Source: an uncultured Bacilli bacterium (GTDB lineage: Bacteria > Bacillota_I > Bacilli_A > RF39 > UBA660). Taken from it: a stretch of 64,000 bases of DNA. Made by a program: the position numbers and the translations under genes. Shown piece after piece: positions 5,969-22,717 of the stretch (position 1 is its first letter; each line of letters starts with the position of its first letter). The stretch lies in contig CALVJQ010000002.1 of assembly GCA_944332265.1 (NCBI GenBank), positions 652-64,651 of the forward strand, in the 5' to 3' direction. The notes beneath the pieces are model-generated. The model had not been told where the DNA came from and did not search any database. It worked only from the letters and a program-made list of their open reading frames with translations.

Positions 5969-6670
5969 ATGAATCAAGAAAAATTTGGACAAGTTATTAA
6001 AGAGATAAGAAAAAAGCATAATTTAACACAAAGTCAATTAGCACAAAAATATAATGTTACTTATCAAGCTGTAAGTAAATGGGAAAATGGTTTGAATATG
6101 CCTGATACTGGATTAATAAAACAAATTAGTAAAGATTTTAATATTAGTTTAGAAGAACTATTAGATGGTGAATATAAAGAAAAGGCAGAACATCCTAAAA
6201 CATTTAAATGGTTATTACTATTAATTCCACTTATAATTTTAATTATTATAGGAATAATATTATTAGTTGTAAAACTTAACGATGATTTTAAATTTAAAAC
6301 TTTATCTTCTTCTAGTAATTTTTTTAATATATCTGGGAGTATTGCTTATAATGAAAGTAAATCTGCTATATATATTACTAATATTGAATATAGTGGAGAG
6401 GAAGATGATACTTTATATAAAGATATAGAATGTAGTTTATTTGAATCAGACAATAACGTAGATGTGAAAATAAGTTCTTTTTCTTCTAATAAAGAAAATA
6501 TTAAATTAGATGAATTTTTAAAAGAAGTTACTTTATCTGTTGATGACTATGAAAAAAATTGTGATGAATATAATGATAATAGTTTATATTTAACAATTAA
6601 TGCAACTGATAAAAATGATAAAATTACAACTTATAAAATTCCTTTAACAATGGATAGCTGTGCTACTTAA
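5969..6670 (+). CDS. membrane-anchored XRE-family (HTH_3) transcriptional regulator with extracellular C-terminal domain
   Basis: N-terminal HTH 'LTQSQLAQKYNVTYQAVSKWENG', then a TM helix (WLLLLIPLIILIIIGIILLVV), then a roughly 130-aa extracytoplasmic domain. A TTACAA-16-TATAAT promoter and an SD are upstream. Confidence 0.7.
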   Translation: MNQEKFGQVIKEIRKKHNLTQSQLAQKYNVTYQAVSKWENGLNMPDTGLIKQISKDFNISLEELLDGEYKEKAEHPKTFKWLLLLIPLIILIIIGIILLVVKLNDDFKFKTLSSSSNFFNISGSIAYNESKSAIYITNIEYSGEEDDTLYKDIECSLFESDNNVDVKISSFSSNKENIKLDEFLKEVTLSVDDYEKNCDEYNDNSLYLTINATDKNDKITTYKIPLTMDSCAT

Positions 6671-6771
6671 TTTAACTCAACTCTTAGTTGAGTTATTTTC
6701 AACTATTTCTTTATTTATTTTTATTTGTTTTTTTTGTATGATGATAGCAAGAAAGGAGAAATTATGTATTT

Positions 6772-8736
6772 ATGAAAAAGAAAAAAATATTATTGGGACT
6801 GGGAGTTTTAATTATTGTAATACTCTTAGTAATTGGAGGATTTTGGATAGGAAAAAATAAGTTAAATAAAGAAGAAGTTAATCAAGTTAAAAGTATGATT
6901 GCTTTACAAAGTGAAAAAGAAAAGGATTTTAAAATTGATGGTTATACAATTGATGAACCTAATGTTATTTTGAATCCTTATGGCAATTCGCCATTAACAG
7001 CATTAATAATGTTTGAAACTGATAAGGAGGTTGAAGTAACAGTTACTATAAAAGGTGATGATAAATTATCAACTTTTACACATACTTTTGCTAAAGAAAA
7101 AGAGCATTATTTACCTATTTATGGTTTATATGCTGATAGAAAAAATAAAGTTATAATTGAATATGAAGATGATAATCAAGAAATTAAAAAGGAAATAGAA
7201 ATTAAAACTGATAAATTACCTTCTAATATGGCTTTGCCAACGGAAGTAGATGCTAAAAAAAGTAAATTAACTAACGAATTATATTTCTTTACACCATCTA
7301 GTAGTGGGTATACTATGGCATATGATGTAAATGGTGATGTTAGATGGTATTTTACTAATTATGCATTATGGAAAATAGACAGATTAGAAAATGGAAATCT
7401 TTTAGTTAGTACGGAAAGATTAGTTAATAGTCCATATTATATGACAGGATTATATGAAATGGATTTATTAGGTAAGATATATAATGAATATAGTCTTCCT
7501 GGGGGATATCACCATGATTATTATGAAATGGAAAATGGAAATCTTTTAGTTGCAAGTGATGACTTTAATAACGAAAGTGGTACTGTAGAAGATTATATTG
7601 TTGAATTAGATAGGAAAACTGGAGAAATAGTAAAAACATTTGATTTAAAAGATGTTTTAAAGATGACAGATGGTAAAAGTGAAAACTGGTCTGATTATGA
7701 TTGGTTTCATAATAATTCAGTTTGGTATGATAAAAAAACTAATTCTATTACCTTGTCAGGTCGTCATCAAGATGCTGTTATTAATTTAGACTATGATACA
7801 GGAAAATTAAATTGGATTATTGGTGATTCAACTAATTGGAGTGAAGAATATCAAAAGTATTTCTTTACACCTGTTGGCGACGACTTTGAATGGCAATGGA
7901 GTCAACATGCGGCAATGATTACTCCAGAAGGATATGTATTTATCTTAGATAACGGTAATAATAAATCAAAAATTAAAGAAGAATATGTTGATGCTTCTAA
8001 TAGTTATACTAGAGGAGTTATGTATAAGATAGATACTGATAAAATGACAATTGAACAAGTATGGGAATATGGTAAAGAAAGAGGAAGTGAATTTTATTCT
8101 CCATACATATCTGATGTTGATTATTTAGATAAGGATCATTATATAGTTCATTCTGGTGGTATAGTATTTGTAGATGGTAAAAATTCTAATCAACCTGCGG
8201 GATTTAGTAAAGGTGCTGAATTATTATCTGATACAGTAGAAATTATTGATGATGAAGTAGTTTTTGAAATAAAATTACCAACAAATAATTATCGTGTTGA
8301 AAAAATGAGTTTATATACTGATGATAATAATTTTAAATTGGGTGAAGCAAACAGAATTGGTTCACTTGGTGAAACAAAGAAAGATGATAAAAAATTAACA
8401 TTTAATTTATTTACTAAAAAAATCGATGATACTTATAAAAAACATGATATTAGTATTGATAAAGAGGTTGATCGTTTAGTAGTTAAAGGTCAATTTAAAA
8501 GAACTGATTCAGTTAATATTGTATTATATAAAGGAATAACTGCTAATTATTATAACCTACGAGTAAGTAAAAAACCATATACTGCTTTATGTGTTGATAT
8601 TTTTACAGAAGAAGAGACTAAAAATGGAATTGTTGTTACTAAGTATATTAATAATGATGGTTTAAAAGGTAAGTATGCTGTATATATTGAAATAAATGGA
8701 ACATTATATAATACTAATGAATATGTTGAATTTTAA
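6772..8736 (+). CDS. signal-anchored beta-propeller protein, arylsulfotransferase (ASST)-like
   Basis: 654 aa with an N-terminal TM helix; repeated 'ENGNLLV' and 'GGYHHDYY' and Trp-rich propeller-like repeats recalled from the ASST family. Not verified by search. Confidence 0.45.
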   Translation: MKKKKILLGLGVLIIVILLVIGGFWIGKNKLNKEEVNQVKSMIALQSEKEKDFKIDGYTIDEPNVILNPYGNSPLTALIMFETDKEVEVTVTIKGDDKLSTFTHTFAKEKEHYLPIYGLYADRKNKVIIEYEDDNQEIKKEIEIKTDKLPSNMALPTEVDAKKSKLTNELYFFTPSSSGYTMAYDVNGDVRWYFTNYALWKIDRLENGNLLVSTERLVNSPYYMTGLYEMDLLGKIYNEYSLPGGYHHDYYEMENGNLLVASDDFNNESGTVEDYIVELDRKTGEIVKTFDLKDVLKMTDGKSENWSDYDWFHNNSVWYDKKTNSITLSGRHQDAVINLDYDTGKLNWIIGDSTNWSEEYQKYFFTPVGDDFEWQWSQHAAMITPEGYVFILDNGNNKSKIKEEYVDASNSYTRGVMYKIDTDKMTIEQVWEYGKERGSEFYSPYISDVDYLDKDHYIVHSGGIVFVDGKNSNQPAGFSKGAELLSDTVEIIDDEVVFEIKLPTNNYRVEKMSLYTDDNNFKLGEANRIGSLGETKKDDKKLTFNLFTKKIDDTYKKHDISIDKEVDRLVVKGQFKRTDSVNIVLYKGITANYYNLRVSKKPYTALCVDIFTEEETKNGIVVTKYINNDGLKGKYAVYIEINGTLYNTNEYVEF

Positions 8737-8740
8737 AAGA

Positions 8741-8811
8741 GCTTGTTAATAACTAATCAGTTATTAACAAGTTAAATAAAAAGAATAGTTTGAAAATTCA
8801 AGCTATTCTTT
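8741..8811. terminator. two hairpins (CTTGTTAATAAC/GTTATTAACAAG and GAATAGTTTG/CAAGCTATTC) followed by a T-run; bidirectional terminator for the ASST-like gene and tRNA-Thr
   Basis: Inverted repeats read directly from the sequence, with A/T runs flanking both sides. Confidence 0.5.
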
Positions 8812-8825
8812 TTTTAAATATTATA

Positions 8826-8900
8826 TGGTGCCGACTGCCGGATTTGAACCAGCGACCTACGCGTTACGAGGGCGTTGCACTACCACTGTGCTAAGTCGGC
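8826..8900 (-). tRNA. tRNA-Thr (anticodon CGU), CCA encoded
   Basis: Reverse complement folds as a cloverleaf: acceptor GCCGACT/AGTCGGC, D-arm GCAC-AGTGGTA-GTGC, anticodon loop CUCGUAA, T-arm GCTGG-TTCAAAT-CCGGC, discriminator A, then CCA. There is one C-C mismatch at 31-39. Confidence 0.85.
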
Positions 8901-8967
8901 TTATATAAATTATACACTTTTTTTTAAAATAGTGGTATACTTTTATAAATAATAGGAGTTGATTTTT

Positions 8968-9993
8968 GTGAAATGTGTTTCCTTAAAAGGTAAAAAGAAA
9001 CTAGAAGTTTCGACTATTAATAATGCAAAGTCTAAAGATGGTAGTGTTGTTATTGATATTAAGAAAACAGGAATTTGTGGTTCTGATATTCATTATTGGG
9101 ATATGGGAATGCCTGATGGATTAGTAATGGGACATGAGTTTTGTGGAGTAGTAACTGACCCTGGGTCACGTAAAGATTTAAAAATTGGAGATCGTGTAAC
9201 AGGTTTACCTATTTCGCCTTGTGGAAAGTGTCCTGCTTGCTTAAGTGGAAATCCACAATATTGTCCTGATACTTGGACATATGCTGTTGGGTTGTCTTTA
9301 ACTAACCCTGGTGGTTATGCTGAGGCAACTGCCGTAAGACCCGATTTAGTTATTAAGGTTCCTAGTAATATTACTGATTCTGAAGTTGCGATGGTAGAAC
9401 CAACTGCTGTTGGGTTGCATGCTGTTAATTTAGCTGATATTAAAATAGGTTCTAAAGTTTTAGTTATTGGAGCGGGAATTATAGGCGATATATGTGCTAT
9501 GTTTGCTAAAATGAATGGAGCTTCTTATGTAGCTATATCTGAAACTAATGAAAAACGTGGTAAAAAAGCAGTTACATTAAAGTGTGCTGATGAATACTTT
9601 TATGCTCATGATGAAAAGTTTATGGAAAATGTTAGAAGAGAGTGTCCTTTTGGATATGATGTAGTATTTGATTGTTCAGGGAATAGTGCAGCTGTTTCAA
9701 CTGCCCTTGCTTGTGTTAAACCAAATGGAACTGTAGTTATGGTTGGAGTTTCAATGGAAAGTATTACTATTCCTTCTGTTTTATTAGTTATGCATGAATT
9801 AAAAGTATATGGAGCTATTGGATATACATATGATGAATTTAAAGAATGTATTGATTTAATGTCTACACGTAAAATTGATATGTTGAAATTTGTTGATGAT
9901 ATAGTTGGATTAGATGGCGTACAAAATGCTTTTGAGAGATTGACTTCCGGCGAAGATAATGCTATTAAAATTTTAATTGACCCAAATAAATAA
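8968..9993 (+). CDS. Zn-dependent alcohol/polyol dehydrogenase (MDR family, sorbitol/threonine dehydrogenase-like)
   Basis: 'GICGSDIHYW' and 'GHEFCGVV' catalytic-zinc motifs, a structural-zinc Cys cluster (CGKCPACLSGNPQYC) and a 'GAGIIG' Rossmann motif. GTG 8968 sits 10 nt after AGGAG, which is better than the track's TTG 8959. Confidence 0.8.
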   Translation: MKCVSLKGKKKLEVSTINNAKSKDGSVVIDIKKTGICGSDIHYWDMGMPDGLVMGHEFCGVVTDPGSRKDLKIGDRVTGLPISPCGKCPACLSGNPQYCPDTWTYAVGLSLTNPGGYAEATAVRPDLVIKVPSNITDSEVAMVEPTAVGLHAVNLADIKIGSKVLVIGAGIIGDICAMFAKMNGASYVAISETNEKRGKKAVTLKCADEYFYAHDEKFMENVRRECPFGYDVVFDCSGNSAAVSTALACVKPNGTVVMVGVSMESITIPSVLLVMHELKVYGAIGYTYDEFKECIDLMSTRKIDMLKFVDDIVGLDGVQNAFERLTSGEDNAIKILIDPNK

Positions 9994-10095: not shown

Positions 10096-10461
10096 TGGTG
10101 GAGCAGAGGAGAATCGAACTCCTGTCCAAACTACTCTGTTATATAACGTCTACAAGTTTAGTTAGATTTATAATTTCATTAAGAAGACGGCTATAACGTA
10201 CCTATTTCTTAACTATCCTAAAAAAGATTCATTATTAGATCTTAGGATATCTAATAATATAATCTATATATATTAACCCTTAATTTATCCTATAGATGAA
10301 AATAAATAAGAGTGCTTCTTAACCTTCTATTAGGCAAATGCTAAAGCATTTGAAGCGAAATTATATGACTCTTTGTCATTTTATTTTAATTGTGAATTTT
10401 AGGTAATTCCTACCACTTGCAGTCATACACAGACATAATCTGTCGAAACCTGGTCTGCCCC
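10096..10461 (-). ncRNA. ssrA: tmRNA (ssrA), about 366 nt
   Basis: Minus-strand 5' end GGGGCAGACCAGGTTTCGACAG and 3' tRNA-like end GGACAGGAGTTCGATTCTCCTCTGCTCCACCA. An internal tag frame GAC AAA GAG TCA TAT AAT TTC GCT TCA AAT GCT TTA GCA TTT GCC TAA TAG reads (D)KESYNFASNALAFA**. Confidence 0.85.
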
Positions 10462-10514: not shown

Positions 10515-10545
10515 TTGACAATTTTTTGTCATATAGTGTTATAAT
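10515..10545 (+). promoter_or_regulatory. sigma-A-type promoter (TTGACA ... TGtTATAAT) with a perfect palindrome TGACAATTTTTTGTCA overlapping the -35
   Basis: Read in the sequence. The spacer is 19 nt, compensated by an extended -10 (TG). It lies 130 nt upstream of the J-like gene. Confidence 0.4.
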
Positions 10546-10677
10546 TTTCTTAATTAAATATTTTATATTTTGATTGGCATTTATCCTATATATAAAGATA
10601 AGGTTGACTTTTTAAGTGTTATATGGTAGTGTAAGTGACGAAAAGGAGAAAATGTTTTATTAAGGGGGGTAATACTA

Positions 10678-12020
10678 TGAATTATTATGATATTTTAAAC
10701 ATTCAAACAGATGCTACTTCAGATGAGATAAAAGTAGCTTTAGAGAATTACGAAAATCAACTTTATGAAGATCGAATTAATGATAAAATCTCAGCACAAG
10801 AATTCAATGATTTAATTGATGAATTCGAAGAAATAAAAAAGGTTTTACTTAATGATGATCTTCGCCAAGAATATGACAAAAAATTTGCTAAACGTAAAAG
10901 GCAAAATACTGGTAAAGGTAAGAAAAAAACGGGAGCCGTTGTTGCAGGAGCCGTGGCAGCATCACTTATAGTAGCAGCTTTAATTGGAACTAATGCAGAT
11001 AAAATATCTACACTATTTAGAAGTACAGGAGGAGATGTTACAGTTTCTCAAGATGTAAATCAAGAAAATAACGATTACACATCAGGTAATACTAGTACAG
11101 GAGAAACTGCTGAAGCAGAAGATAATATAGAAGTTTTAGAAGAAACTCCTGAACCTATTAATTATGGGGATATTAATGATGATGCTTTAGTAACTGAAAG
11201 AGCTACAACTTTAGTTAATCAATTAAATGATATGGGAATTATTAATCCTTCTACTGGAACAGCTTATACTGTTGAAGAAATAAAGACATTAATTTTATAT
11301 ATTAATGGTGTATATACACCTACTACATTAGAAGAAATCGATGTTTTACATTTAAATCTATTAAATCTTTTGATTTCTCCATTAAATGTTGATCCATATT
11401 TATACCATGTTGTATATGCATCAGGAAATGATGATTTTAAAGATATGGTAAATCCTGAAGCGATTAAACCAATTGATTTTGGTTCAGCATTGGCTGAATA
11501 TGGAACTAATGGGGTTTATCCATTAACTGAGTGGATTCAACAAAAACGTGAAGATATATTTAAAGCTACTGATAGAGAGACTATTAATAGTATATATGTT
11601 GAAGTTGGACAAGTAATGGCAGACATTATGAAAGGTAATGGATGTACAATTAAAGTTGATGATGTTGAATATACTTATACAAGTGAACAAATTCTTGCTA
11701 ATCATGCATCAGCTATGCTTCTTACTACGGAAGCACAATTAATATTTGCTAACCATTATGAGGTAAGAGATATAAATGATAATGTTATTGATTCAGTTCA
11801 AACTACTTGGGAAGTTTATAACAAATTTAATGGTGATGAACCTGATCATGTTACATTAGATGAAATTCAAGCTTGGATTAATAATGGTTGTGATTATGAA
11901 TGGGGTATCGATGATGTTTTAATTAACGGTCAAACATTCGGACAAAGAATTCAAGGGGATTTGGAAGGCATGGCACAAAATAACTATGCAATGTCATCTG
12001 GTAAAACACTTTCTAAGTAA
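10678..12020 (+). CDS. bitopic membrane protein with N-terminal degenerate J-domain (HPD replaced by YED) and large extracytoplasmic domain
   Basis: ATG at 10678 after AAGGGGGG. Residues 1-70 align with the DnaJ J-domain (YYDILNI...DEIK...YD) but have 'LYEDRIN' where 'YHPDRN' is expected. A TM helix GAVVAGAVAASLIVAALIG follows, then about 330 aa of acidic extracellular sequence. Confidence 0.6.
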
Positions 12021-12043
12021 ATATAGGTAGGAGGTTATAAGTT

Positions 12044-14227
12044 ATGTACGATAATGATAATGTTACTTACAAAGTTGGAATTAACTGGAAAGATATTATA
12101 ATTAAAGTAATAATTTTAGCTTTATTTATCTTACTTCTTTTATGGCTATTTCCTAAGGCTAATTTAGATGTTTTCTATGATTCAATTTATTCAGAAAACA
12201 TTAAAACAATGAAAGATGCTGCAAGAAACTATTATACTGTTGATAGACTTCCAGCAAATGTTGGCGATCAAACATCAATGACATTAAAAGAAATGATTGA
12301 TAATAAAATGTTAATCAGATTTACCGATAAAGATGGTCAAACTTGTGATGAGACTACTAGTAAAGTTGAAGTTACAAAGATTGCTGATGATGAATATACT
12401 TTAAAAGTACAATTAAATTGTGGTGAACAACAAGATTATATATTAGAAACTATTGGTTGTACTACTGTATGTTCTAATGGTACTTGTACAACTGTAATCA
12501 ATAATGGTGATAATTCTAGTACTATTGCTAACAACAATAATAATCAATCTAATAATACAACTGGTATATCTAATGATGATTCAGTAACTGAAAGAGTTGA
12601 TTCTGATGGTACTGAAACTGGTAGTGTTAAAGATGATATTTATACAGTAAAAACGATACTATATCAACATAAAAAAGCAATTGTAACTACGAAGACTGTT
12701 TATACTTGCCCTAGTGGTTACACAAAGAATGGTACTAAATGTATTAAGAAAACTACTGGTGCTACAATCGATGCTACTCCTGTATACAATCCTGATCAAG
12801 TTATAACTACGGACGCTAAATATAATTATACTGGCGACTATACTGTTAGTGCTGATCCAATTAAGAAAGAAGTTGGAACCGATTATACTTGTCCTTCTGG
12901 TTATACATTAAATGGAGCATATTGTATAAAATATACTAACGCAACAGAACATAAAGGTGAAACTACTTATACTTGTCCTTCTGGTTATACTAAGAATGGT
13001 ACAAAATGTGTTAAGACTTATGATGCTACAAAGAAAACTGGCAGTGGATCTTATAGTTGTCCTAGTGGTGGAACTTTAAGTGGTTCTAAGTGTACAATAA
13101 CTTCTAATGCTTCTGCTAGTACAAGTTATACTTGTCCTTCTGGTTATACAAAAAATGGAACAAGTTGTTATAAAGTATATACGGCATCTGGAAGTACTAC
13201 TTATAGTTGTCCTTCTGGTTATACAAGAAGTGGTTCTACTTGTTCTAAAACTACTTCAGTAGCAGCTACTGCTCATACTTCATATGGTGGATGGGTAAAT
13301 CAAGGAACTAAGTATTATACTTCATCTTCTAAAGCATATACTGGTACTACTTCTAAATTAGTATTACAAGGTGCTATTTCTGGAGCTACTTGTGGTTCTC
13401 CTTGTGGAAATAAAGGTATATGGTATAAATATATTTACTATACTAGAAGTCAATCTACTTCATATACTTGTCCTTCTGGTTATTCAAGAAGTGGTTCTAC
13501 ATGTTATAAGACAACAACTATTTCTGCAACTGCTAATACTAAATATAGTTGTCCTAGTGGAGGATCTTTAAGTGGAAATAAATGTACAATAACTTCTAGT
13601 GCTACTGCTAATACTACTTATAGTTGTCCTTCTGGATATTCAAAGAATGGTACTAAATGTACTAAAACATATAATGCAACTTATAATTCTGGTTCAACAA
13701 GTTATACTTGTCCTAATGGTGGAACTTTATCTGGTACGAAATGTACAATAACTAAGGATGCTACTGCTTCAACTGGTCAAACAACATATACTTGTCCTTC
13801 TGGATATACATATAATTCAAGTACTAAGAAATGTGAAATGAAAATAAGTGCTACTGCAACTAAGAAATATAGTTATAGTTGCCCTACTGGATATACAGCT
13901 TCTGGTGAAGGAGAAAATATGAAATGTACTAAAACTGTTAAAGGAGAAAACAAATACTATTGTGAAGATAGTGATGCAGTTTTAAATGGTACTAAGTGTA
14001 TTAAAACTGTTAAGGGTGATATTAAGAATTATACTTGTCCTAATGGCTATACATTAAGTGGAGAGAAATGTATAAAACAAACAACTGTTACTATAGATGC
14101 TACTGTAAGTACTAAGAAATCTACATCTTATCAATATAAATGGAGTGAGAAATCTTATTTAGAAGGTTGGACATTTACTGGTAAGACTAAGACTTCAACA
14201 AAAACTTATACAGCTGGTCAAAGATAA
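12044..14227 (+). CDS. signal-anchored surface protein with about 14 tandem Cys-pair repeats ([ST]Y[ST]CP[SN]G[YG][ST]x[NS]G[ST]xC[TIVY]K)
   Basis: Strong SD (GGTAGGAGG) 24 nt after the upstream stop, an N-terminal TM helix, and a repeat unit of 24-30 aa with exactly two Cys; Thr/Ser/Lys-rich. Confidence 0.6.
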   Translation: MYDNDNVTYKVGINWKDIIIKVIILALFILLLLWLFPKANLDVFYDSIYSENIKTMKDAARNYYTVDRLPANVGDQTSMTLKEMIDNKMLIRFTDKDGQTCDETTSKVEVTKIADDEYTLKVQLNCGEQQDYILETIGCTTVCSNGTCTTVINNGDNSSTIANNNNNQSNNTTGISNDDSVTERVDSDGTETGSVKDDIYTVKTILYQHKKAIVTTKTVYTCPSGYTKNGTKCIKKTTGATIDATPVYNPDQVITTDAKYNYTGDYTVSADPIKKEVGTDYTCPSGYTLNGAYCIKYTNATEHKGETTYTCPSGYTKNGTKCVKTYDATKKTGSGSYSCPSGGTLSGSKCTITSNASASTSYTCPSGYTKNGTSCYKVYTASGSTTYSCPSGYTRSGSTCSKTTSVAATAHTSYGGWVNQGTKYYTSSSKAYTGTTSKLVLQGAISGATCGSPCGNKGIWYKYIYYTRSQSTSYTCPSGYSRSGSTCYKTTTISATANTKYSCPSGGSLSGNKCTITSSATANTTYSCPSGYSKNGTKCTKTYNATYNSGSTSYTCPNGGTLSGTKCTITKDATASTGQTTYTCPSGYTYNSSTKKCEMKISATATKKYSYSCPTGYTASGEGENMKCTKTVKGENKYYCEDSDAVLNGTKCIKTVKGDIKNYTCPNGYTLSGEKCIKQTTVTIDATVSTKKSTSYQYKWSEKSYLEGWTFTGKTKTSTKTYTAGQR
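12690..14080 (+). repeat. imperfect tandem coding repeats, about 14 units of 72-90 bp, two alternating subtypes
   Basis: Recurrent 'ACTTGTCCTTCTGGTTATAC' and 'AGTTGTCCTAGTGGTGGAAC' DNA cores, seen directly in the sequence. Confidence 0.6.
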
Positions 14228-14235
14228 GAAAAAAG

Positions 14236-14262
14236 TTATTATGAAATTCATAATAACTTTTT
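14236..14262. terminator. bidirectional terminator hairpin AGTTATTATGA-AAT-TCATAATAACT plus T-run
   Basis: Perfect 11-bp stem between the two convergent genes. Confidence 0.5.
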
Positions 14263-15644
14263 TAATTGAATAAATATAAATTATTATCGATTAAGATTAA
14301 TTTATCTTTTTTATATGTTTCAAGGAATATATATTTTATATTATTTTGATTATCTATAATATAACCTGTTTTTTCGACTGTAGGAGAGTTTTCTATTATA
14401 TTAAAGGATTTTATTGTATTTGATATAAATTCTTCTGTATCAAGCTCTTTTTCGTTAATATTAGTAATATATGTTATAGTATCTGTTTGATATTCGTTAT
14501 AACCAATTAAAAGGATAGTATATATATCATTGTTTTGGATAACAATAAAATTTAAGATTGTTTTATTATAGAACTCTTGTTTTTCATTTGTTTTTAAATT
14601 AGTTATTGAGAAGATATTATCTTCTAGTTTTAATTCATATTGATTATTAGAATTATCTAATTGATATTCAGTATAAACTGGATAAGTTAATTCATTATAA
14701 GATATTTCTTTTAAATCATAATTATAGCATATTTCAGGATTATCATATTCTGGTAAATAACCTATAGAAAAATATAAAACAATAATAATAAAGATTAAAC
14801 GAGATTTATTTTTCTCTGATTTTTCTATTTCTTCAGCTGTATATTTAATAGAAACTAAGTCTTTTATTTTATCTTTTCTGAGAAGATAAAGACCTATTAG
14901 AATATAAATTATAGACATAATTATGGATATTAAAAGACTTGATATTAAATATGTTTTGGTAATATTTCCCTCTGTACAATCTTTAATAGTATCAATAAGG
15001 GATATATAAATAGCAAAATCCCAAAAGCCATGAATGAAAGCATTAGCCCAGATATTTTTAGTACGATAGTAAATACATCCTAAAAGGAAACCGGCACCAA
15101 TAGCTTGAATAATTTGAGCTATTGTTTCAATTATACCTTGGCCACCAATCCAAATATTGGATATATGCATTCCTCCAAAGATTATAGATGAACATAAAAT
15201 AGAGATAATTACTTGTTTTTGAGTATTGCTATATTTTTCAATAAATTCATTTTGAATCCAACCACGACATAGTATTTCTTCCATTACACCAATAGAAAGA
15301 CAATATAGTAATAAAGATAGTACATCGATTATTAAAGGATTAGTTTTAAGACTCAATAAATTAACTAGTAAACTTAGAAAAGATAAACCAATCATAAAAC
15401 CACCAATTAATAATGATTTGCTAAAGTTTTCTTTCTTTTCTTTAAATATATATGTATTTTTAAATATTATAATAACAATTACAGCTAAGAGGATACAACT
15501 CATTTCAACGATAAACTCTCTACCATAACGACCATATAAAATTGATCTTGATATTATTGGGTATAATTGGTTACTAATTATTTCATATATAAAAAAGAAT
15601 AATAATAATTTTAAAAATAGTAAGACTATTTTAAGTTTTTTCAT
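14262..15644 (-). CDS. CPBP-family (CAAX/Abi) intramembrane metalloprotease with extra C-terminal extracytoplasmic domain
   Basis: Motifs 'EEILCRGW' (EExxxR), 'FGGMHISN' (FxxxH) and 'HGFWDF' (HxxxN/D) in successive TM helices; 460 aa; SD GAGGTG. Confidence 0.7.
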   Translation of the reverse strand: MKKLKIVLLFLKLLLFFFIYEIISNQLYPIISRSILYGRYGREFIVEMSCILLAVIVIIIFKNTYIFKEKKENFSKSLLIGGFMIGLSFLSLLVNLLSLKTNPLIIDVLSLLLYCLSIGVMEEILCRGWIQNEFIEKYSNTQKQVIISILCSSIIFGGMHISNIWIGGQGIIETIAQIIQAIGAGFLLGCIYYRTKNIWANAFIHGFWDFAIYISLIDTIKDCTEGNITKTYLISSLLISIIMSIIYILIGLYLLRKDKIKDLVSIKYTAEEIEKSEKNKSRLIFIIIVLYFSIGYLPEYDNPEICYNYDLKEISYNELTYPVYTEYQLDNSNNQYELKLEDNIFSITNLKTNEKQEFYNKTILNFIVIQNNDIYTILLIGYNEYQTDTITYITNINEKELDTEEFISNTIKSFNIIENSPTVEKTGYIIDNQNNIKYIFLETYKKDKLILIDNNLYLFN

Positions 15645-19149: not shown

Positions 19150-19395
19150 AAAAAAATCTAAAACTAAGGGACGAGAAAACCCGCGGTACCACCCTAATTC
19201 TAGATATCTAGCACTTTTATAGATTTAACGCATCTATTTACGATACAACTCCAACAGTGAATTTCATTATATTATTTATCTATAAATGCTTCCAGCTTTT
19301 AACATTTAATCTCTATTTAAGAACTTAATATAATTACTTAATCCGTCTTCAACGTTTTTCTAAAAAGTATTTTAGCATACTTATAAATAATATGC
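19150..19395 (-). promoter_or_regulatory. T-box riboswitch leader (Phe specifier UUC) with promoter TTGCAT-17-TAAAAT
   Basis: Conserved T-box sequence AATTAGGGTGGTACCGCGGG (reverse complement of 19180..19199), a stem I AGAGA motif, a 'GAAAUUCAC' specifier region, and a terminator hairpin plus U-run before the pheS SD. Confidence 0.8.
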
Positions 19396-19408: not shown

Positions 19409-20254
19409 CTATATTTTATTAAATTCAATTATTTCTTTATAAATTTCTTTTATTTGGTCTTGTTCTTTAATATTATAGTTGTTTAGAATTTTATTTATTT
19501 GGTCTTGTTCCTTTAATTTAGTATTTTTTAAAATTTTTTCAAAGTTAGTAATAGTAAGTTTAATACTTTCTTCGTCAGTTAAATGGCTATATGATTTAAT
19601 ACGCATAATACCATATTCAGTTTCTCTTTTAGTTATTGCTCCAATATAACTTGTTATATTACGATATATTTTAGGTTTAGTATATTCATTATATATCATT
19701 ATAGAATAAATTAGATTGTTTATATTATTATTTTTACTTTTTATGAATTTAGCATATTGATTTTTGAATTTAGCATATTGAACAATAATTTGTTCTTTTT
19801 TTATTTTTAAATCTTTATTTTTTAATGATATTTTCTTTTCTTTAGTTAATTCATTATACAAATGTGATATGTATAATATTATTAAAAACCATAATAAAGG
19901 TTTAATATCTGAAGGATTAGGGATTACTGTATCTACTTGATTAATAAAGTAATTATATGTAAATAAACTAAGAGCTATACTAACAACGCTTTCAATAATA
20001 AACATTGTGTTGCTAATCTTATTTTCTTTGGATATTACAGATGTTATATAGAAGTTGCGAATAAAAATTTCGAATACAACAATTAGGAAGATATTATTTT
20101 TTATAGTTGGAAATAAAGCTGATAATATTATTATATAAATAGATGGAATAAGAATATAATTGATTGATCGATTTTCTTTATTTTCTAAAATATTTAGTAT
20201 TATAGTTAGGGGAATAGTTAAAATAATTTGTATTATCAAAGTTAGTAAATCCAT
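19409..20254 (-). CDS. polytopic membrane hypothetical protein with cytoplasmic C-terminal domain and internal duplications
   Basis: 281 aa with SD AGGAGG; 4-5 TM helices; direct DNA repeats TTTATTTGGTCTTGTTC(T/C)TTTAAT x2 and TGAATTTAGCATATTGA x2 inside the ORF (protein 'NNYNIKEQDQI' and 'QYAKF' duplications). Confidence 0.5.
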   Translation of the reverse strand: MDLLTLIIQIILTIPLTIILNILENKENRSINYILIPSIYIIILSALFPTIKNNIFLIVVFEIFIRNFYITSVISKENKISNTMFIIESVVSIALSLFTYNYFINQVDTVIPNPSDIKPLLWFLIILYISHLYNELTKEKKISLKNKDLKIKKEQIIVQYAKFKNQYAKFIKSKNNNINNLIYSIMIYNEYTKPKIYRNITSYIGAITKRETEYGIMRIKSYSHLTDEESIKLTITNFEKILKNTKLKEQDQINKILNNYNIKEQDQIKEIYKEIIEFNKI

Positions 20255-20602: not shown

Positions 20603-22717
20603 TTAGTTTTGATTATTATCCAGACTATTAATATATTGATCAAGTTCATGAGTTAAATCTTCAGTTGTTACTTGTTTATTATTATTTTGAAGCTCTTCAT
20701 ATTTTTTTTCAGGGTTGAAAATAGTATCTATTGATAATGGATTATTATCTTGAGGTTCATTATTTTCTTCTTTATTTGATTCTTGAGTTACTTCCTCTTC
20801 TTTTTCTTCTTCAGATGGAAGTTCTTCATTATTAGCTATTTCTGTTGGTAATGGATTTTCTACCGGTATTTGTTCTTCTTCAATTTTTTCTGGTTCTAAT
20901 ACTGATTCTTCATTTAGATTACTTTCATTGGAAGTATTTTCTTCAATATTTGAAGTTAATTGTTCATCTGGTTGAGATATTTCAGAATCTTCATTATCAA
21001 CATCATCTAATATATTAGAAGGAATAGTTATTTGAGCTTCATCTATTACTTTTATTCCTCTTTTAGGAGGTGCTGATATTTCGTCAATTGGTGTTTCATC
21101 TAGAGAATCTATTAATTGATAATCTTCTTTTATATATTGATCATAATCACGAGGAATAATTTTACTTGTATTATTTATTAATTCAATATCAATATCTTTT
21201 ATAAGGTCTAAACCTAAATATTCTTCAAGACGATTTATAATATCTATTGGAGCTTCAGGAAATTGACGGCGATGTTTAATATCAATTACTATTTGTGCTA
21301 GTTCTTTAAGAACATCTTTATCTTTGTTTTTAGAAGCGATATCAATTAAGCCAGATTTTTTAGAAGTCAAACGATTTTTTAAACGATTAATTTCTTCTTC
21401 TGCTTCTTTAATTTTGTCACGAAGATTTTCACATTCATATTTGATTATTCTTGTAGCATTTTCAATATCTTCAGCTTCATCATTTTTAAATGATGTAGCA
21501 ATTTTTTCTGCTTCTTTAATGTCTTCTTTCTTTTCATCTAGAGATGCTTTTAAACGAGCTTTTGCTCCAATGCTAGTATCTGGTGTTTCATCATATGCTC
21601 TTTGAAATTCACTATAATCTTTTTTCATTGTAGCAATCATTTCAGCTATTATTTTATCTTTAGCATTATAATTAAATTCACTATCTTTATCAACTAAAAG
21701 AATTTTATTATTTAGCTGATTTAAATCTTCTTGCCATTTTGTAATACGTTCATTTAGAAATTCAGTTCTAACTTTTTCTGGAGTATTTGCTTCAAGAATA
21801 TTATATGTTTTTTGGTCAATTTCATTGGCAAATGAATCACGAGCTTGAGTGGCTCTTAATAATTCCTCTTCTAAAGCATTATTTATAGGAACATTAATAT
21901 AAGGAATTCTAATTACTTGATTAAGAAGGTTTATTAAATATGGACGAGTTTTAGATAAATCTTCTTTATTATTAATAATTTCTTTTATTTTAGATTCTAA
22001 ATACTTAGGATCTTTTTTTATTTCTTCTAAACGTATATTTAGGGCTTTTTTCTTACTTTCTAATTCAGCGATTCTTTTGTTGTTTTTTTCTTTTTTTACT
22101 TTATCTATATAGTTATCGCGGTTTTCTAAGGATGCTTGAGTTTCTGCAAGTATTTTCTTTTTCTTATCTATTTTTTCTTCAAGGACTTTAATAGCTTCTG
22201 TATAATCAATTATTTGTTGTTGGATTTCATCATAGTTTCCACTTTGACTATTTAGTTCGTCATTTAGTTTATTTATGTTTTCTGTTGTTTCAGTAATTAA
22301 CATATTATAATGATTAACTATCTCAGTATCAGTTGTTGTACTTATACGTTCTTGCATGCTTAATAGATATTTTTCTTGACTATCTTTATTGTTTCTTAAT
22401 AAAGTTGTTTGATCATATAATAGTTTTTCTTCATCTTTTAGATTTGCTAATTCCTTGTTTTTTTCTTTTAATTCGTTTTTTAATGATTGAAGTTGTTTTT
22501 TAGTTATTATTTCAATGTTACGATCGGCCATTTCAGCGCTTGTATCATATATTTCTTCTTCAGAAATAGAATTTATATCATCTATTTCTTGGTTGTAACT
22601 TTTTAATTTTGTTTCGATTTCTTCTTCTTCGACACGTAAAGATGGACCATCACTTTTGGAGCGTGACATTTTTACTAATACATCCAAATTCCAAAATACT
22701 TTTAATTTATCGTCCAT
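20603..22717 (-). CDS. large acidic coiled-coil protein (704 aa), unknown function
   Basis: Heptad-rich K/E sequence through most of its length, a Glu/Asp/Asn-rich low-complexity C-terminus, and no TM or NTP-binding motif. Confidence 0.55.
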   Translation of the reverse strand: MDDKLKVFWNLDVLVKMSRSKSDGPSLRVEEEEIETKLKSYNQEIDDINSISEEEIYDTSAEMADRNIEIITKKQLQSLKNELKEKNKELANLKDEEKLLYDQTTLLRNNKDSQEKYLLSMQERISTTTDTEIVNHYNMLITETTENINKLNDELNSQSGNYDEIQQQIIDYTEAIKVLEEKIDKKKKILAETQASLENRDNYIDKVKKEKNNKRIAELESKKKALNIRLEEIKKDPKYLESKIKEIINNKEDLSKTRPYLINLLNQVIRIPYINVPINNALEEELLRATQARDSFANEIDQKTYNILEANTPEKVRTEFLNERITKWQEDLNQLNNKILLVDKDSEFNYNAKDKIIAEMIATMKKDYSEFQRAYDETPDTSIGAKARLKASLDEKKEDIKEAEKIATSFKNDEAEDIENATRIIKYECENLRDKIKEAEEEINRLKNRLTSKKSGLIDIASKNKDKDVLKELAQIVIDIKHRRQFPEAPIDIINRLEEYLGLDLIKDIDIELINNTSKIIPRDYDQYIKEDYQLIDSLDETPIDEISAPPKRGIKVIDEAQITIPSNILDDVDNEDSEISQPDEQLTSNIEENTSNESNLNEESVLEPEKIEEEQIPVENPLPTEIANNEELPSEEEKEEEVTQESNKEENNEPQDNNPLSIDTIFNPEKKYEELQNNNKQVTTEDLTHELDQYINSLDNNQN

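What the first reader, a model, noticed from the sequence alone, without database searches (positions are those of the whole stretch)
10515..15644. Novel envelope module next to tmRNA: degenerate-J-domain membrane protein, Cys-pair-repeat surface protein, and a convergent CPBP intramembrane protease
Three adjacent genes with no recognisable housekeeping role form a compact unit. A promoter carrying a perfect palindromic operator (TGACAATTTTTTGTCA) sits on the -35. The operon is tightly coupled, with 24 nt between the genes and a strong SD. Its first gene encodes a cytoplasmic J-like domain (HPD replaced by YED), a TM helix and an extracellular domain. Its second gene encodes a 727-aa surface protein that is almost entirely Cys-pair hairpin repeats. 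It ends at a bidirectional terminator shared with a CPBP (CAAX/Abi-type) protease gene that has an extra C-terminal domain. CPBP proteases typically process or confer immunity toward secreted peptides and proteins. A J-like domain tethered to the membrane beside a repeat surface protein suggests chaperone-assisted assembly or signalling across the membrane. I do not recognise this combination as a described system.
Basis: partly seen in the sequence, partly recalled or inferred. Interest (0 to 1): 0.75.

Follow-up and report, generated by a model that had tools for sequence, protein, structure and literature searches.

The report
Conserved J-like and Cys-repeat surface operon
Two of the three genes form a tightly linked operon of unknown function, found only in uncultured gut bacteria of the RF39 group, that most likely builds a long membrane-anchored surface fibre together with a partner membrane protein; the third gene, a CPBP protease, is only an occasional neighbour.

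The parts
10096..10461 (-). tmRNA (ssrA) gene, divergent from the operon. It is a conserved neighbour, not shown to be functionally linked.
   Evidence: Rfam RF00023, 123.5 bits. A divergent tmRNA lies upstream of the J-like gene in 31 of 32 related loci with enough upstream DNA.
10515..10545 (+). Distal promoter-like site P1: TTGACA, 19 nt, TGnTATAAT. It carries the 6-4-6 inverted repeat TGACAA-TTTT-TTGTCA (10516-10531).
   Evidence: Read from the sequence. The -35 and extended -10 recur in L003-L007. The inverted repeat recurs only in L007 and partly in L004. Repeats of this class are common in the window.
10587..10632 (+). Proximal conserved block P2: TATATATA-AGATAAGG-TTGACT (10604-10609), 17 nt, TGg-TAGTGT (10627-10632). 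This is the better conserved promoter or regulatory element.
   Evidence: The block is conserved in all of L003-L007. No Rfam family matches the leader.
10677..12020 (+). J-like bitopic membrane protein, 447 aa. It has a cytoplasmic degenerate J domain (1-76, HPD to YED), a basic cluster plus TM helix (about 87-104), a disordered acidic linker (about 105-155) and a conserved ectodomain (160-447).
12044..14227 (+). Cys-repeat protein, 727 aa. It has a short conserved cytoplasmic tail, an uncleaved TM helix (15-35), a pilin-fold domain (42-138, conserved C101/C126), a disordered N/S-rich linker (139-198), a beta-ribbon stalk with 13 CPxG...C hairpins and a conserved C-terminal YKWS..LEGWTFTGKTKT motif.
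14229..14263 (.). Bidirectional terminator-like hairpin shared by the convergent transcription units.
   Evidence: 17-nt perfect arms. dG -14.6/-14.0 kcal/mol, z -6.7/-7.1.
14262..15644 (-). CPBP (Rce1-like) intramembrane protease with an extra TM helix and a C-terminal extracytoplasmic domain. It lies downstream of pheS-pheT on the same strand and is not a conserved member of the module.
   Evidence: PF02517 E=4e-20. Motifs are present. Context census.

Best explanation
The region holds two unrelated things.

(1) A vertically inherited, translationally coupled two-gene operon of a clade of uncultured gut Bacilli (Candidatus Coprovivens and relatives, GTDB order RF39).
- Gene 2 encodes a type-II membrane protein. 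Its membrane-proximal domain has a type-IV-pilin-like fold but no prepilin cleavage site, so it stays anchored by its own helix.
- From that base a flexible linker and a long, thin beta-ribbon stalk project outwards. The stalk is built of EGF-type, probably disulfide-closed hairpins and ends in a conserved tip motif.
- This is a surface fibre, most likely an adhesin or spacer that reaches through and beyond the wall.
- Gene 1 encodes its dedicated partner: a bitopic protein with a novel conserved ectodomain on a flexible tether outside and a J-domain-derived three-helix module inside.
- That module has lost HPD and the basic helix II. It is therefore a structural or docking module, not an Hsp70 activator.
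- The two proteins are made in fixed proportion and probably form a complex at the fibre base or with the fibre.

(2) A CPBP protease gene that belongs to the pheST strand. In this sub-lineage it happens to lie between pheT and the operon, sharing only a terminator hairpin.

Shown: gene structures, domain folds, HPD loss, conservation and co-occurrence. Inferred: surface fibre, complex formation, adhesion.
For: - Co-occurrence is 40/40, with gaps of at most 24 nt in 38 loci.
- The downstream side is rearranged many times, yet the pair is never split except by one extra same-strand gene in L001 and L009.
- Gene 2 topology and shape: TM 15-35, helix 42-63 plus four strands, then about 500 residues of short strands. 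pTM is 0.26, typical of an extended model.
- C101 and C126 are invariant. There are 13 CPxG..C hairpins, and homologues pass the Pfam cEGF cutoff.
- Hairpin number (12-22) and protein length (about 650-1007 aa) vary between relatives, while the N-domain scores 203-235 bits everywhere.
- Gene 1: J fold and homology, no HPD in any of 34 homologues, YED aligned to HPD, ectodomain pLDDT above 90 with 40 invariant positions.
- There are no phage, plasmid or defence-system matches. The context is core chromosome (ssrA, pheST, ribosomal genes).
- CPBP is absent from 26 of 28 loci.
Against: - No experiment or annotated homologue exists. Every hit is a nameless metagenomic protein.
- The whole block ssrA / J-like / Cys-repeat / pheT is syntenic, so part of the co-occurrence could be shared ancestry.
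- 53 more distant members of the N-domain family have no J-like neighbour, and some of those still carry Cys hairpins. The partner is therefore not needed by the superfamily as a whole.
- Disulfides could not be inspected in the model. This is an anaerobe and no oxidase was identified.
- Physical interaction of the two proteins was not tested, because no complex prediction was available.
Confidence: 0.45

Rival explanations
1. One reading: a three-gene envelope module in which the CPBP protease processes the Cys-repeat protein, or confers immunity to it, with J-domain chaperone assistance.
For: The genes are adjacent and share a terminator in the window, L003 and L005. The CPBP motifs are intact.
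Against: CPBP is present in only 2 of 28 loci with enough downstream DNA. pheT or other genes follow the pair elsewhere. CPBP homologues lie behind pheS-pheT or in unrelated contexts. The gene is convergent and on the pheST strand, 76 nt after pheT, with no terminator between them.
Confidence: 0.04
2. The J-like domain still engages the DnaK system, for example by docking DnaJ or DnaK as Pam16 does with Pam18. This would keep the 727-aa Cys-rich precursor export-competent at the membrane. Gene 1 would then be a dedicated export or assembly chaperone.
For: J-domain homology and fold are real. The Asp of HPD and the following Arg are retained in the window protein. The genes are tightly coupled. 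J-like proteins lacking HPD that regulate true J proteins are known (Pam16: PMC11349236, PMC7064343).
Against: HPD is absent from the whole family and the J-like region has almost no invariant residues. Helix II is acidic rather than basic. Distant family members work without any J-like neighbour.
Confidence: 0.12
3. A core envelope-morphogenesis, division or sporulation structure rather than an adhesin. The pair would be a housekeeping scaffold of RF39 cells.
For: The pair sits in a single conserved core-chromosome position between ssrA and pheST and ribosomal genes. The N-domain family also sits beside smr, priA, gyrB and rpoZ in other lineages. RF39 is predicted to be walled and possibly spore-forming (PMC10868615).
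Against: Repeat number and sequence vary strongly between relatives, which is typical of exposed surface proteins. The promoters look sigma-A-like. There is no similarity to known division or sporulation proteins.
Confidence: 0.15
4. Gene 2 is a modular type IV pilin or pseudopilin that is polymerised into, or caps, a type 4 filament.
For: The best structural neighbours of the N-domain are GspI/EpsI/XcpV and S. sanguinis PilA. Pilins with a grafted module are widespread (PMC8179133). The window protein has Gly12 followed by a hydrophobic stretch, with Asp at +5.
Against: Gly at -1 is not conserved; K, R, N or S replace it in relatives. Four polar or charged residues lie in the first 10 positions after it. 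There is no N_methyl or prepilin motif hit in Pfam or NCBIfam. No type 4 filament machinery genes appear in any of about 50 neighbourhoods.
Confidence: 0.07
5. A transmembrane sensor pair. The ectodomain of gene 1 would sense the state of the fibre or an external ligand, and the J-like domain would relay the signal inside.
For: The bitopic architecture resembles anti-sigma and one-component sensors. There is a weak DUF4179-type hit over the TM region, E=0.13.
Against: No regulator is conserved nearby. The J-like domain evolves fast. The DUF4179 hit is not significant.
Confidence: 0.08

Closest known systems
J-domain proteins, and J-like proteins without HPD (Pam16/Tim16; chloroplast NdhU/CRRJ-type membrane J-like subunits; E. 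coli DjlA as a membrane-anchored true J protein)
   Different: The J-like domain is N-terminal and is followed by a TM helix and a large novel extracytoplasmic domain. Helix II is acidic. No partner J protein is encoded nearby. It occurs in Bacilli and is linked to a surface-protein gene.
Type IV pilins and pseudopilins (GspI/EpsI/XcpV) and modular pilins (S. sanguinis PilB/PilC, PMC8179133)
   Same: An N-terminal hydrophobic helix continues into an amphipathic helix packed on a 4-stranded sheet, with a conserved Cys pair. A large module is grafted C-terminally.
   Different: There is no class III signal peptide, no sequence signature and no filament machinery nearby. It is probably a monomeric anchor rather than a filament subunit.
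cEGF / EGF C-terminal hairpin repeats, and Cys-rich TraN
   Same: The CPxG[YF]..G..C hairpin motif is shared. Homologues P0098 and P0059 pass the Pfam cEGF cutoff. There is a weak NCBIfam TraN hit.
   Different: Only the two-Cys hairpin is repeated, not the six-Cys EGF domain. The window protein scores 13.9 bits against a cutoff of 26.6. TraN scores 27.7 bits against a cutoff of 796, so that match reflects Cys spacing and not homology.
Fibrillar adhesins of Gram-positive bacteria (repeat stalk plus anchor plus tip)
   Same: It has an elongated repeat stalk of variable copy number between conserved ends.
   Different: It is anchored by an N-terminal TM helix and pilin-fold domain, not by a C-terminal LPXTG motif. 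The stalk is made of 2-Cys hairpins, not Ig-like domains. It is co-encoded with a pseudo-J membrane partner.
CPBP / Rce1-like glutamic intramembrane proteases
   Same: The third gene is a member: PF02517 with its motifs.
   Different: It has an extra TM helix and a 170-aa C-terminal domain. It is not linked to the pair outside a small sub-lineage.

Membership tests
J-domain (DnaJ/Hsp40) proteins | Sequence match to the J-domain profile | tested here: inconclusive
   The window protein scores 25.3 bits, below the Pfam cutoff of 27.8. Relatives in L001 and L002 pass with 34.4 and 33.8 bits. The family profile hits E. coli DnaJ at E=6e-7.
J-domain (DnaJ/Hsp40) proteins | J fold (helices I-IV) | tested here: met
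J-domain (DnaJ/Hsp40) proteins | HPD tripeptide between helices II and III, required for Hsp70 ATPase stimulation | tested here: not met
   YED aligns to HPD. None of 34 aligned homologues has HPD.
Type IV pilins / pseudopilins | Class III signal peptide: a hydrophilic leader ending in Gly or Ala, then about 21 hydrophobic residues with Glu at +5 | tested here: not met
   Gly12 is not conserved; K, R, N or S replace it. The following 10 residues include N, K, D and K. There is no N_methyl or prepilin hit.
Type IV pilins / pseudopilins | Pilin fold: a long N-terminal helix packed on an antiparallel sheet | tested here: met
Type IV pilins / pseudopilins | Co-occurrence with prepilin peptidase, assembly ATPase and platform protein | tested here: inconclusive
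   None appears within 6-8 kb in about 50 loci. Whole genomes were not available.
cEGF (PF12662) | Score above the Pfam gathering cutoff | tested here: not met
   The window protein scores 13.9 bits against 26.6. Some homologues pass: P0098 with 39.2 and P0059 with 31.2.
TraN mating-pair stabilisation protein | Score above the NCBIfam cutoff | tested here: not met
   27.7 bits against a cutoff of 796. There are no plasmid homologues of the N-domain.
CPBP / Rce1-like protease (third gene) | PF02517 match and the EExxxR, FxxxH and HxxxN/D motifs | tested here: met
   72.3 bits against a cutoff of 22.4. EEILCR, FGGMH and HGFWD are present.
Proposed three-gene module (J-like + Cys-repeat + CPBP) | Conserved co-occurrence of all three genes | tested here: not met
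   The pair is conserved in 40/40 loci. CPBP is present in 2 of 28 loci with enough downstream sequence, plus one cut copy.

The most novel reading that the evidence does not exclude
The N-terminal TM-plus-pilin-fold domain defines an unrecognised superfamily of at least 933 clusters at 50% identity, with no Pfam, PDB or named member. These would be self-anchored surface fibres in Mollicutes-related gut Bacilli. In the RF39 clade the fibre would be operated by a transmembrane pseudo-J-domain partner that couples a cytoplasmic factor to the fibre. That would be a new kind of envelope apparatus, derived from a pilin that no longer needs a pilus machine.
Probability: 0.25. Interest if true: 0.7.

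Novelty: new variant of a known kind. Interest (0 to 1): 0.5.

Why it matters
RF39 bacteria are abundant, uncultured gut organisms with reduced genomes, and their way of life is unknown. This operon is a lineage-wide, core, surface-directed module.

- The fibre protein is a prime candidate for how these cells attach to a host or to partner cells. It also offers a handle (epitope or tip motif) for visualising or enriching them.
- It shows a J domain reused without its catalytic motif on a bacterial bitopic membrane protein.
- It shows a pilin fold used as a stand-alone membrane anchor.
- It provides two confidently modelled domains with no solved relatives.
- For the scan itself, the result shows that adjacency plus a shared terminator wrongly suggested a three-gene system.

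Tried and rejected
- **ARAGORN:** it missed the tmRNA, which Rfam found.
- **First family scans:** they used a wrong frame.
- **Foldseek against the PDB with the full Cys-repeat model:** nothing significant, best E=0.11.
- **afdb50 fold library:** not available.
- **Sequence profiles against the PDB:** no pilin or other link for the Cys-repeat protein or its N-domain.
- **Pfam on the N-domain:** only noise.
- **PADLOC:** no defence-system match.
- **PHROGs:** only one unknown-function phage family matches the J-like/TM part.
- **Phage and plasmid collections:** no homologue of the N-domain.
- **Cluster look-up of ten distant family members:** no names returned.
- **Literature searches:** no description of these proteins.
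- **The 345-aa middle gene of L001:** no significant relation to the gene 1 ectodomain, hhalign probability 1.7%.
- **A structured leader RNA upstream of gene 1:** not supported, z -1.9 and no Rfam hit.
- **Operator status of the inverted repeat:** rejected for lack of conservation, and because such repeats are common in the window.
Full report
**What is in the sequence**

The window is about 27% G+C. The cited span holds three ORFs.
- Gene 1 most likely starts at ATG 10677, behind AAGGGGGG, and ends at 12020.
- Gene 2 runs 12044-14227. It lies 23 nt after gene 1 and is preceded by GGAGG.
- Gene 3 runs 15644-14262 on the other strand.

Rfam finds a tmRNA at 10096-10461 (-) with 123.5 bits; ARAGORN missed it. 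A 17-nt-arm perfect hairpin at 14229-14263, flanked by A6 and T6, folds at -14.6 and -14.0 kcal/mol on the two strands (z -6.7 and -7.1). It is a plausible bidirectional terminator.

**Promoter region**

TTGACA (10515-10520) and TGnTATAAT (10537-10545) are separated by 19 nt. The "palindrome" TGACAATTTTTTGTCA is a 6-4-6 inverted repeat, not a 16-nt palindrome.
- The window holds 143 inverted repeats of that class, against about 75 in Markov simulations.
- The repeat is absent from the closest relative (L003) and from L005 and L006. It is present in L007 and partly in L004.

An operator is therefore not supported. A second block nearer the gene, TATATATA..GATAAxGTTGACT-17-TGnTAGTGT (about 10587-10632), is conserved in all five relatives. 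It is the better candidate promoter. No Rfam family and no unusually stable fold occupies the leader.

**Gene 1**

- Pfam DnaJ matches residues 2-67 at 25.3 bits, just under the cutoff of 27.8.
- Distant relatives pass the cutoff (34 bits).
- A 34-sequence family profile hits E. coli DnaJ at E=6e-7.
- YED aligns to HPD, and no homologue has HPD.
- Helix II is acidic.

By established knowledge of J domains, where HPD mutants are inactive, this domain cannot stimulate Hsp70.

**Gene 2**

The protein has 35 Cys and 13 units of Y[TS]CP[ST]G[YG][TS]xxGxxC. This unit is the C-terminal hairpin motif of EGF domains. Some homologues pass the Pfam cEGF cutoff, but the window protein does not. The TraN hit (27.7 bits against a cutoff of 796) reflects Cys spacing only.

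The AlphaFold model (pLDDT 71, pTM 0.26, consistent with an elongated shape) shows these parts:
- a TM helix at 15-35;
- a helix at 42-63 packed on four strands (76-138);
- a disordered linker at 139-198;
- about 500 residues of short strands.

The defining class III signal peptide is not present. Gly12 is replaced by K, R, N or S in relatives, and charged residues follow it. No sequence signature of pilins is detected. I read this domain as a pilin-fold anchor that is not processed or polymerised.

The N-domain is the most conserved part of the protein, scoring 203-235 bits in every relative. Hairpin number (12-22) and protein length (about 650-1007 aa) vary, and a C-terminal YKWS..L.GWT.TGKTKT motif is retained.

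**Gene 3**

PF02517 scores 72 bits and EEILCR, FGGMH and HGFWD are present. A further TM helix and a 170-aa C-terminal domain are conserved in homologues. It is a bona fide CPBP protease.

**Co-occurrence**

Loci came from homologue look-ups, a genome scan and a metagenome scan with the N-domain alignment. I scored them with HMMs built here.

In the 40 loci whose N-domain is close to the window's:
- a J- and/or ectodomain-positive gene lies directly upstream on the same strand in 40 of 40;
- 38 have a gap of at most 24 nt or an overlap;
- L001 and L009 carry one extra 330-345-aa gene (a possible lipoprotein) between the two;
- a divergent tmRNA lies upstream in 31 of 32 loci with enough upstream DNA;
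- downstream, pheT follows in 15 of 28 loci with enough sequence, and the rest show at least six different neighbours;
- CPBP is present in 2 of the 28 (window and L005), plus a cut copy in L003.

CPBP homologues elsewhere sit behind pheS-pheT on the same strand (L015) or in unrelated contexts (L016, L017). In the window the CPBP gene starts 76 nt after pheT with no terminator between them. It belongs to that side.

**The wider family**

The 140-aa N-domain alone finds 933 clusters at 50% identity (628 at E of 1e-10 or better). The domain is always N-terminal, in proteins of about 350-1000 aa. None has a name, and none occurs in phage or plasmid collections.

Fifty-three more distant loci have no J-like gene and no tmRNA nearby. 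They sit beside smr, priA, gyrB or rpoZ. Some of these still have Cys hairpins; others carry different repeats. The J-like partner is therefore a clade-specific addition to an older, broader family.

**Organism**

The nearest named relatives are Candidatus Coprovivens, placed in GTDB order RF39, family CAG-1000 (PMC8035907). RF39 is predicted to be mostly walled and possibly spore-forming (PMC10868615).

**Interpretation**

The best-supported reading is a two-protein surface module. One protein is a self-anchored fibre with a hairpin-repeat stalk. The other is a dedicated bitopic partner whose cytoplasmic part is a dead J domain.
- Established here: the anatomy, the conservation and the exclusion of CPBP.
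- Inferred: surface exposure, disulfides, complex formation and adhesion.

Rivals that remain open are residual DnaK-system docking, a morphogenetic scaffold, a true pilin and a sensor. They are scored in the Rival explanations section. No function can be assigned from homology, because no member has been studied.

**Verdict**

The trio interpretation is wrong and the pair interpretation is right. The module is undescribed, but it can be read as a new variant of membrane-anchored fibrillar surface proteins with an unusual partner. Interest is moderate (0.5): two unusual domain uses and a large unannotated family, with no direct evidence of function.

Noticed in passing
window 10096-10461 (-); L001, L004, L005, L007, L009-L012: ARAGORN did not call the tmRNA gene, but Rfam finds it at 105-138 bits in all these loci. 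Its divergent adjacency to the J-like gene (31 of 32 loci) is kept more strictly than the downstream synteny.
   Followed up: partly
window 10587-10632 (+): A conserved block TATATATA..GATAAxGTTGACT-17-TGnTAGTGT lies between the distal promoter and the start codon. It is present in all five close relatives and is either a second promoter or a regulator site.
   Followed up: partly
window 19164-19361 (-): A T-box leader upstream of pheS scores 86.1 bits, below the Rfam gathering score of 93, so the default scan missed it. Relatives score 93.7-102.
   Followed up: yes
L001 6943-7980; L009 4995-5987: In a sub-lineage, an extra 330-345-aa gene with an N-terminal TM helix and a possible lipobox (VSSC) lies between the J-like and Cys-repeat genes. 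There the J-like protein's ectodomain no longer matches the main family.
   Followed up: partly
L013 1875-2975, and the same position in L044, L045, L064, L081, L083: A second protein of about 367 aa has a TM helix followed by a pilin-like sequence pattern (helix, then LP..., then a conserved Cys pair). It lies a few genes upstream of the N-domain family member, in a polA / xerC-like / smr block.
   Followed up: no
window 19409-20254 (-) and 20603-22717 (-): A 281-aa polytopic membrane protein and a 704-aa acidic coiled-coil protein have no Pfam match. Their homologues lie directly next to the pair in L002 and L019 and in the same block in L011, so they are further conserved unknowns of this lineage.
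   Followed up: partly
window 5969-9993: On the 3' side of the tmRNA gene lie an HTH_3 regulator, an arylsulfotransferase (ASST, E=2e-101), tRNA-Thr(CGT) and a zinc alcohol dehydrogenase. This flank differs in every related locus and GC skew flips at about 6000. It looks like a variable insertion zone at the ssrA 3' end.
   Followed up: partly
window 10677-11063 (residues 1-129 of gene 1): The J-like/TM part matches phage family phrog_14336 (unknown function, E=1.6e-7). Some phages therefore encode a similar membrane-tethered J-like N-terminus.
   Followed up: no
P0183, P0178, P0179 (homologues of gene 1): Some homologues repeat, two or three times, the first ~60-aa module of the ectodomain (..A..LV.QLN.AG.VN..T..PYT..E....I.Y..G.Y.P). 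The pattern loosely recalls helical peptidoglycan-binding repeats, but no Pfam match supports this.
   Followed up: no
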